DNA of 64,000 bases from Eledone cirrhosa. Taxonomy: Eukaryota. Of the stretch, positions 32,411-32,680 are shown piece by piece. Under the pieces are notes generated by a model, which saw nothing but the letters and a program-made list of their open reading frames with translations, was not told the origin of the DNA and searched no databases. The position numbers were made by a program, and so were the translations under genes. The number at the start of each line of letters is the position of its first letter. Position 1 is the first letter of the stretch. Location: assembly GCA_964016885.1 (NCBI GenBank), contig OZ024756.1:36518001-36582000 (forward strand), given 5' to 3'.

Positions 32411-32680
32411 CTCGCCAGATTGCCTTCCAATATCTTCCAGTTTTTATGTTGTCGTTTCATCTGAACTCAAACCAAATAGCCATTTTGATGTCCATCTTTG
32501 GCCTTTGGCTCACCCTCGGAGAACTTCTCGTTGGCGTTGTTGTTGATGTCCTTCATGTTAACAGCAAGATCGTGTTTGTGTTTTCTCTGGTTGTTATCGG
32601 TAGTGGCATTTTAGCCATCGCTCACTGCAATACTTTCACTCTGATGGCTGTGGCTCTCAGTATAATTGGTATTACAGTAG
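32411..32680 (+). CDS. MCT-A exon 6 (TM7 end to TM10)
   Basis: AG/GT, 270 nt, FQYLP...MSIFGLWLTLGELLVGVVVD. Confidence 0.88.

What the first reader, a model, noticed from the sequence alone, without database searches (positions are those of the whole stretch)
32480..32549. MCT-A: TM8 carboxylate-binding Arg replaced by Glu (charge reversal)
Seen: TM8 reads ILMSIFGLWLTLGELLVGVVVD. Manual alignment to MCT1 (FLLSILAFVDMVARPSMG) puts Leu at the Asp and Glu at the Arg of the TM8 ion pair (human D309/R313, rat D302/R306). The TM1 K38-equivalent position is Gly, with a Lys one residue earlier. Known: these residues mediate proton-coupled monocarboxylate binding. Inference: this is not a lactate/pyruvate carrier and may transport a cation such as an amine.
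Basis: partly seen in the sequence, partly recalled or inferred. Interest (0 to 1): 0.75.

Follow-up and report, generated by a model that had tools for sequence, protein, structure and literature searches.

The report
Octopus orphan transporter keeps backup arginine
An intact octopus transporter gene does carry glutamate where human lactate carriers have their acid-binding arginine, but the loss of that arginine is shared by a whole cephalopod gene family that keeps a second arginine likely facing the same pocket, so the protein probably still carries acids or zwitterions rather than amines.

Summary
Observation confirmed, interpretation mostly not. MCT-A is an intact 8-exon, 565-aa SLC16 gene. 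HMMER puts Leu427 at MCT1 D309, Glu431 at R313 and Gly123 at K38 (Lys122 at P37). The Glu is not peculiar to this gene: 5 of 10 TM8 exons in its tandem array have Glu and 5 have Asn, and its closest relatives in two Octopus species have Gln. MCT-A lies in a clade (named members Octopus, Sepia; bootstrap 100) with no Arg at 313 (Glu 9, Gln 8, Asn 2 of 19), which keeps an Arg in TM10 at MCT1 L374 (18 of 19), a pocket-lining position. That Arg is also in 13 of 13 molluscan relatives that still have R313. MCT-A adds Lys122 and Arg395, so counted pocket charges are +1 to +2, not negative. Best reading: an orphan carrier of organic anions or zwitterions built around Arg490; not an MCT1-type site, and unlikely an amine carrier. 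Side-chain geometry, expression and substrate are untested. A separate invertebrate clade with two or three pocket acids fits the cation idea better. Interest 0.3.

The parts
23877..24348 (+). MCT-A exon 1: acidic, low-complexity N-tail, TM1 and TM2
   Evidence: TM1 matches MCT10 at E 8e-06; start codon chosen by inspection, no RNA support
24240..24245 (+). Lys122 (MCT1 P37) and Gly123 (MCT1 K38)
   Evidence: the only Lys at this position among the units of the tree and among 24 TM1 exons printed from this genome
25218..25370 (+). MCT-A exon 2 (TM3-TM4)
26178..26435 (+). MCT-A exon 3 (TM4-TM6)
   Evidence: Pfam MFS_1 E 4.8e-10
29609..29745 (+). MCT-A exon 4, central loop (inferred from splice phase; least certain exon)
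   Evidence: best of 5 candidates with the needed phase; keeps the frame open
31165..31324 (+). MCT-A exon 5 (loop end and start of TM7)
32411..32680 (+). MCT-A exon 6 (TM7 end, TM8, TM9, start of TM10); holds the finding
32413..32415 (+). Arg395 in TM7 (about MCT1 L277 / MCT8 Y335; register uncertain by one residue)
   Evidence: shared only with the O. bimaculoides relative P0001 among the surveyed C-halves
32509..32511 (+). Leu427 at MCT1 D309
32521..32523 (+). Glu431 at MCT1 R313 (codon GAA)
33606..33731 (+). MCT-A exon 7 (TM10-TM11)
33623..33625 (+). Arg490 in TM10 at MCT1 L374, the clade's conserved basic residue
34086..34204 (+). MCT-A exon 8 (TM12, stop codon)
46710..57109 (+). MCT-B, intact 8-exon tandem paralogue (about 493 aa); Thr at 309, Glu at 313 (53260-53262), Arg at 374 (54525-54527)
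62191..64000 (+). MCT-C, first three exons of a third paralogue, running out of the window; exon-1 region 96% identical to MCT-B

Best explanation
MCT-A is an intact orphan SLC16 gene of a tandem-expanded cephalopod subfamily that lacks the TM8 arginine and keeps an arginine in TM10 (Arg490), which likely serves as the substrate's acid-binding group, so the protein probably carries an organic anion or zwitterion rather than an amine. Shown: gene structure, family, residue registers and their distribution. Inferred mechanism: a 12-helix alternating-access carrier. Molluscan relatives have Asp (TM1, MCT1 34), Asn309, Arg313, Arg374 and Gln398; the subfamily has lost the first three and mostly the last, but not Arg374. 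Arg490 would bind a carboxylate or sulfonate. Glu431 would either pair with Arg490 or Arg395 as a TM8-TM10/TM7 lock (as R371-D424 does in MCT8) or hold the amine or guanidinium end of a zwitterion. Because Gln or Asn can stand in its place, its charge is probably not essential across the subfamily, which points to facilitated transport without obligatory proton coupling. Variable pocket residues among paralogues suggest different substrates for different copies. The substrate is not identified.
For: Registers. Arg374-equivalent in 18 of 19 clade units and 13 of 13 sister-grade units, while position 313 is Glu 9, Gln 8, Asn 2 of 19 against Arg 13 of 13, and position 34 is acidic in 0 of 16 against 12 of 12 (related sequences, not independent events). 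It is the most conserved basic column of the clade's C-half (0.95; one other basic column, before TM7, reaches 0.94). In this genome 12 of 12 TM10 exons examined have Arg (10) or Lys (2) there. Clade support UFB 100; MCT-A is sister to two Gln-bearing Octopus C-halves at UFB 100. L374 is within 4 A of a ligand docked at the MCT1 lactate site (PMC13343506); P37 lines an inhibitor pocket in MCT2 (PMC12894981). The MCT1 site attracts anions with net +1 (PMC9982067 Discussion); MCT-A counts +1 (Lys122, Glu431, Arg490) or +2 with Arg395. Precedents for non-Arg at 313 with acid or zwitterion transport: MCT12, Asn, creatine; Chaski, lactate/pyruvate. A model of relative P0023 (same Leu/Glu/Arg pattern; pLDDT 86.4, pTM 0.85) matches MCT1/2/8/10 best.
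Against: No side-chain geometry was measured: the fold tools gave no coordinates, and the model is of a relative (P0023), not MCT-A. The pocket role of L374 rests on one docking passage. The TM10 Arg also occurs beside Arg313 in 41 of 169 units, so it did not arise to replace R313 and could be structural. One clade member lacks it (P0027, Gly). If Glu431 neutralises Arg490, paralogues such as MCT-B have a net-zero site and need not bind anions. In human MCT1, R313N abolishes lactate uptake. The Gln-bearing Octopus relatives are known only as C-halves fused to the next gene in their annotations and may be broken copies. Two clade members have Glu in TM7 with Gln at 313, so an acid near the Arg may matter more than I allow.
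Confidence: 0.55

Rival explanations
1. Neutral-solute carrier, or relaxed constraint in a young tandem array: Glu431 and Arg490 cancel as a structural ion pair, and the Glu/Gln/Asn variation says little about substrate.
For: Pocket positions vary widely among paralogues (for example 12 different residues at MCT1 367 in 19 units). The array has at least 17 TM1 exons but 10 TM8 and 10 TM10 exons, some broken. Glu, Gln and Asn interchange between close relatives.
Against: MCT-A and MCT-B are intact with canonical splice sites. Position 313 is limited to Glu, Gln or Asn in 19 of 19 clade units and position 374 to Arg in 18 of 19, which is not free drift. MCT-A has two further basic residues near the pocket.
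Confidence: 0.2
2. Rebuilt MCT1-like triad: Lys122 (TM1), Glu431 (TM8) and Arg490 (TM10) recreate the Lys / acid / Arg arrangement at shifted positions, so MCT-A is a proton-coupled acid carrier in which protonating Glu431 breaks a Glu-Arg lock.
For: The same three charge types as MCT1's K38/D309/R313 and the same net +1. All three positions line the pocket in MCT1 or MCT2 by the passages read. Lys at 37 occurs only in MCT-A among surveyed units.
Against: The closest Octopus relatives have Gln at 313 (their TM1 was not found). The other Glu-bearing paralogues have no TM1 Lys. The Glu431-Arg490 distance was not measured. A Lys seen in one gene may be incidental.
Confidence: 0.15
3. One reading: Glu431 reverses the site's charge and MCT-A carries an organic cation such as an amine.
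For: Glu does sit at the carboxylate-binding position, and neither K38 nor R313 is present. Glu is common there in the clade (9 of 19). If Arg490, Arg395 and Lys122 face away or are otherwise paired, Glu431 could be the free charge.
Against: One acid against three basic residues at or beside the pocket; the acids at 34, 309 and 398 are absent. Gln in the closest relatives. The review passages read list no plain cation among SLC16 substrates (passages only). A different clade shows what an acidic SLC16 pocket looks like (Asp34 in 34 of 34, TM7 Asp in 29 of 34), and MCT-A has neither.
Confidence: 0.1

Closest known systems
Human MCT1-4 (SLC16A1, A7, A8, A3), proton-coupled monocarboxylate carriers
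   Same: Fold and family; TM1, TM8 and TM10 align without gaps; counted pocket charge is also about +1.
   Different: None of K38, D309, R313 or F/Y367 is kept (Gly, Leu, Glu, Val); an Arg stands at L374 instead.
MCT8 / MCT10 (SLC16A2, SLC16A10)
   Same: No Lys38 or Asp309; a TM8-TM10 ion pair (R371-D424, PMC12078798) may have a counterpart.
   Different: Polarity would be inverted (acid on TM8, Arg on TM10) and the TM10 partner lies seven residues further on. No Asn at 38, no Arg at 313, no Asp at 367.
MCT12 (SLC16A12), creatine carrier
   Same: Natural loss of Arg313 (Asn; PMC9982067), the residue found in 5 of the 10 array exons.
   Different: MCT-A has Glu; MCT12's other pocket residues were not compared (no sequence in hand).
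Drosophila Chaski and its insect relatives
   Same: Invertebrate SLC16 reported to lack MCT1's key residues yet to carry lactate and pyruvate. A beetle protein named chaski (P0252) has Met at 313.
   Different: Separate branch: keeps Asp at 34 and has Thr, not Arg, at 374. The Drosophila sequence itself was not in hand; the link rests on a source's name.
Annotated Octopus 'MCT9-like / MCT12-like' proteins (XP_036366698.1, XP_036366583.1, XP_052831224.1) and molluscan MCT expansions (PMC11939762)
   Same: Same clade and tandem arrangement; the Glu/Arg pattern is already present in these public records.
   Different: No full-length MCT-A orthologue was returned. The clam paper's abstract and passages read do not discuss binding-site residues.

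Membership tests
SLC16 (MCT family) | Best sequence matches among solved structures are SLC16 members | tested here: met
   TM1 exon: MCT10 E 8e-06. TM8 exon: only MCT1 at E <= 10. Relatives P0002, P0023, P0018: all 12-13 hits are MCTs or the bacterial lactate transporter.
SLC16 (MCT family) | 12-helix MFS fold with a long loop between TM6 and TM7 | tested here: met
   Tested on relative P0023, not on MCT-A: pLDDT 86.4; Foldseek ranks 1-18 are MCT1/2/8/10 and the bacterial homologue. MCT-A aligns through all helices; Pfam MFS_1.
SLC16 (MCT family) | Conserved motif before TM1 and basic motif after TM4 (their status as family signatures is recalled) | tested here: met
   Both are present in MCT-A and nearly invariant in the 98-sequence alignment.
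MCT1-4 proton-coupled subgroup | Lys38 in TM1 | tested here: not met
   Gly123; Lys one residue earlier
MCT1-4 proton-coupled subgroup | Asp309 / Arg313 salt bridge in TM8 | tested here: not met
   Leu427 / Glu431
MCT1-4 proton-coupled subgroup | Phe or Tyr at 367 in TM10 | tested here: not met
   Val
MCT1-4 proton-coupled subgroup | Lactate/H+ cotransport | not testable with these tools
   needs a transport assay
MCT8/MCT10 subgroup | N119, Y339, R371, D424 network | tested here: not met
   Gly, Phe, Glu, Val at these positions
Acidic-pocket invertebrate SLC16 clade, including the chaski branch | Asp at MCT1 34, Tyr/Phe at 371, no Arg at 374 | tested here: not met
   MCT-A has Ser, Val and Arg and falls on a separate branch
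Cephalopod R313-less / R374 clade (defined here) | One supported clade with Glu/Gln/Asn at 313, no acid at 34, Arg at 374 | tested here: met
   UFB 100; residues. Several members are unnamed Logan records, so 'cephalopod' rests on the named Octopus and Sepia members.
   The count by alignment is +1 to +2, against the proposal, but side-chain positions and electrostatics could not be computed (no coordinates returned).

The most novel reading that the evidence does not exclude
MCT-A has independently rebuilt the MCT1 catalytic triad from different positions (Lys122 at P37, Glu431 at R313, Arg490 at L374), giving a proton-coupled carrier with an inverted Glu(TM8)-Arg(TM10) lock. Its substrate could be a cephalopod-specific acid or zwitterion such as octopine, which takes lactate's place in cephalopod anaerobic muscle (recalled, from no call).
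Probability: 0.13. Interest if true: 0.7.

Novelty: new variant of a known kind. Interest (0 to 1): 0.3.

Why it matters
If the best reading holds, it shows that SLC16 carriers can drop the TM8 arginine, regarded as the family's conserved carboxylate anchor, and work from a TM10 arginine instead. It also gives a natural series (Arg/Arg, Gln/Arg, Glu/Arg, Asn/Arg, Lys/Arg in one genome) for testing how pocket charge sets substrate and proton coupling. That is useful to transporter specialists but modest: loss of R313 is already known in MCT12 and Chaski, the proteins are in public annotations, and no substrate is known. The side finding, an invertebrate clade with an acidic pocket, is the better place to look for a cation-carrying SLC16.

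Tried and rejected
Expression and RNA editing: the look-up of sequencing runs listed 3 holders from one sample, none on record as RNA (no RNA holder listed), and read laying laid 0 records in 3 of 3 runs; no conclusion either way. TM10 exon alone against PDB: no hit; its register was taken from full-length relatives. Full-length MCT-A orthologue: not found, so Lys122 could not be checked in other species. Protein atlas: exon not held; P0002 gave only MFS_1/MCT clusters. Side-chain distances: structure prediction and fold search return no coordinates. Ancestral residues were not computed; the order Arg to Gln to Glu is only suggested by tip residues and by codons CGA, CAA, GAA in this genome, and no clade test was run. 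Rejected: 'the TM10 Arg arose to replace the TM8 Arg', because it coexists with Arg313 in 41 of 169 units. Rejected: 'sequencing error or pseudogene', because the frame is open and paralogues share the Glu. Rejected: 'TM1 Asp is simply the partner of Arg313', because another clade keeps the Asp without the Arg. Paper searches for a choline-carrying SLC16 and for MCT12 binding residues found nothing usable. The search of earlier findings: 4 unrelated notes by place, none by sequence. tRNA scan: none.

Full report
1. The observation. The window is G000:C17:36518001-36582000 of a 3.0-Gb genome; the closest named relatives of its proteins are from Octopus. The quoted peptide is encoded at 32482-32547 on the + strand, inside an exon at 32411-32680. 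Exon searches and splice-phase checks gave an 8-exon gene with AG/GT ends and no internal stop, 565 codons including the stop. Exon 4 is inferred from phase only. phmmer aligns the exon without gaps to human MCT1 283-345, placing Leu427 on D309 and Glu431 on R313. The match is weak alone, but full-length relatives give the same register. TM1 aligns to MCT10 with Gly123 on N89, the K38 equivalent according to PMC12078798, and Lys122 one residue before.

2. The Glu is a subfamily trait. A search of the own genome with this exon scored 25 candidates and returned 14 matches. Ten lie in one array around the window: Glu in 5, Asn in 5. The other four have Arg, Gln, Lys and Arg. MCT-B, an intact paralogue in the window, also has Glu. 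A profile search of 1.84 billion representatives found 25,190 hits, of which only the best 150 were listed, so the survey is a biased sample. With earlier hits this gave 159 proteins plus MCT-A and MCT-B and 181 C-half matches. I kept 170 with under 25% gaps and dropped one N-half cross-hit. Of the remaining 169, position 313 is Arg/Lys in 112, Glu in 17 and other in 40. The 17 Glu fall in two separate branches.

3. MCT-A has Arg490 in TM10 (codon 33623). It aligns to MCT1 L374 in an ungapped stretch. One docking passage places L374 within 4 A of a ligand at the lactate site (PMC13343506). In an ML tree of 36 selected units, MCT-A sits in a clade with UFB 100 whose named members are Octopus and Sepia. 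In its 19 units position 313 is Glu 9, Gln 8, Asn 2 and never Arg; position 374 is Arg in 18; position 34 is acidic in 0 of 16. In 13 molluscan sister-grade units these are Arg 13 of 13, Arg 13 of 13 and Asp/Glu 12 of 12. So the TM10 Arg is shared with relatives that still have R313, and it is the one charged pocket residue kept when the TM1 Asp, Asn309 and Arg313 are absent. In this genome 12 of 12 TM10 exons examined have Arg or Lys. These counts are of related sequences and do not show independent events.

4. Gln beside Glu. MCT-A's sister units, C-halves from O. bimaculoides and O. sinensis, have Gln at 313 (UFB 100), and the earlier-branching tips of the clade have Gln. Codons at this site in the genome include CGA, CAA and GAA, one base apart in turn. 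This suggests that the Arg was first lost to a neutral residue and that Glu came later, but ancestral states were not computed and no clade test was run. A caveat against this argument: those sister units are annotated only as half-proteins fused to the next gene and may be broken copies.

5. Charge count. PMC9982067 (passages and Discussion) describes MCT1 as attracting anions with net +1 from K38, with D309/R313 as a lock. MCT-A has Lys122 at P37, which lines an inhibitor pocket in MCT2 (PMC12894981, passages); Glu431; Arg490; and Arg395 in TM7 near MCT8 Y335 (register uncertain by one). It lacks acids at 34, 309 and 398 (E398 is in the MCT1 lactate network per PMC13265630, passages). The count is +1 to +2. 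MCT-B-type paralogues count 0. None counts negative. This is bookkeeping from alignments. An AlphaFold2 model of relative P0023, which has the same Leu/Glu/Arg pattern (98-sequence alignment, pLDDT 86.4, pTM 0.85), confirms the SLC16 fold but no coordinates were returned, so orientation and pairing were not measured.

6. Does loss of R313 rule out lactate? But MCT12 naturally has Asn there and carries creatine, and Drosophila Chaski is reported to keep none of the key residues and to move lactate, pyruvate and oxamate in HEK cells (PMC5775259, passages and one results section; its supplement, which may show the alignment, was not read). A search from an insect member of the second R313-less branch listed 120 of 225 hits, including a beetle protein named chaski. 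Among their C-half rows 119 of 121 have Met at 313 and 2 have Ile; 99 further rows were N-half cross-hits and were set aside. MCT7 lacks D309 and is a pH-independent taurine carrier (PMC8980330, one passage).

7. Mechanism. Best reading (0.55): an alternating-access carrier whose acid-binding group is Arg490, with Glu431 as a replaceable partner or amine-side contact, carrying an organic anion or zwitterion, probably without obligatory proton coupling. Rivals: neutral solute or relaxed constraint (0.2); a rebuilt Lys/Glu/Arg triad with proton coupling, particular to MCT-A (0.15); cation carrier (0.1). Gene structure, family and residue distributions are shown. Orientation, pairing, coupling and substrate are inferred.

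8. Comparison with what is known. MCT-A is an SLC16 member but fails the defining residues of MCT1-4 and of MCT8/10. The clade's proteins are in public annotations as MCT9-like or MCT12-like. Molluscan MCT expansion by tandem duplication is published (PMC11939762, abstract and passages). I saw no paper on this clade's binding site in the listings of searches; the library lacks most subscription papers, so this is weak. PMC11754210 (passages) was used only for its substrate table. No supplements were read for any paper.

9. Verdict. A real feature, a new variant of a known kind, interest 0.3. The headline 'charge reversal, amine carrier' is unlikely. The conserved TM10 Arg, and the acidic-pocket clade seen in passing, are the leads worth testing. 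Expression is untested: no RNA holder was listed.

Noticed in passing
proteins P0119, P0095, P0087, P0058, P0094 and others (34 units): A separate invertebrate SLC16 clade has Asp at MCT1 Y34 (34 of 34), Asp at F278 in TM7 (29 of 34), Glu (8), Gln, Met, Asn or Leu at R313, and no conserved basic residue at 38, 313 or 374. It is a much better candidate for a cation carrier than MCT-A. Its chaski branch lacks the TM7 Asp.
   Followed up: partly
G000:C17:36.54-36.75 Mb (window 23877-64000 and beyond): Tandem SLC16 array on both strands: at least 17 TM1, 10 TM8 and 10 TM10 exon matches (lower bounds), several near-identical and at least one broken TM1 exon (L037). Recent duplication or partly assembly artefact.
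   Followed up: partly
P0001, P0003, P0296, P0298: O. bimaculoides and O. sinensis annotations fuse the C-half of the MCT-A relative to the next gene in the array; probably annotation errors, or the N-half is broken there.
   Followed up: partly
L012, L013, L019, L020: Paralogues have CAA (Gln) or AAG (Lys) at 313 and AAA (Lys) at 374; A-to-I editing, common in coleoids (recalled), could turn each into Arg. MCT-A's GAA could only become Gly or stay Glu. No RNA was available to test this.
   Followed up: no
window 23877-24165: MCT-A has a long acidic N-tail with Glu/Val repeats and a run of about 17 Glu, absent from MCT-B.
   Followed up: no
window 8846-11572 (+): 909-aa open frame with reverse transcriptase (RVT_1 E 2.4e-27) and zf-RVT domains: a non-LTR retrotransposon.
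   Followed up: partly
window 41032-42198 (-): 389-aa open frame between MCT-A and MCT-B with no Pfam hit at E 0.01; resembles a Penelope-type endonuclease end (recalled, untested).
   Followed up: partly
window 887-2191 and 4910-5650 (+): Two long hydrophilic open frames, probably exons of an upstream gene; no Pfam hit.
   Followed up: partly
window 26806-29586: About 2.8 kb CA-rich tandem array in MCT-A intron 3, ending just before the inferred exon 4.
   Followed up: no
window about 30490-30920 and 33400-34040: Several copies of one dispersed repeat of about 190 bases in MCT-A introns, one directly after the exon 7 donor site; SINE-like by appearance only.
   Followed up: no
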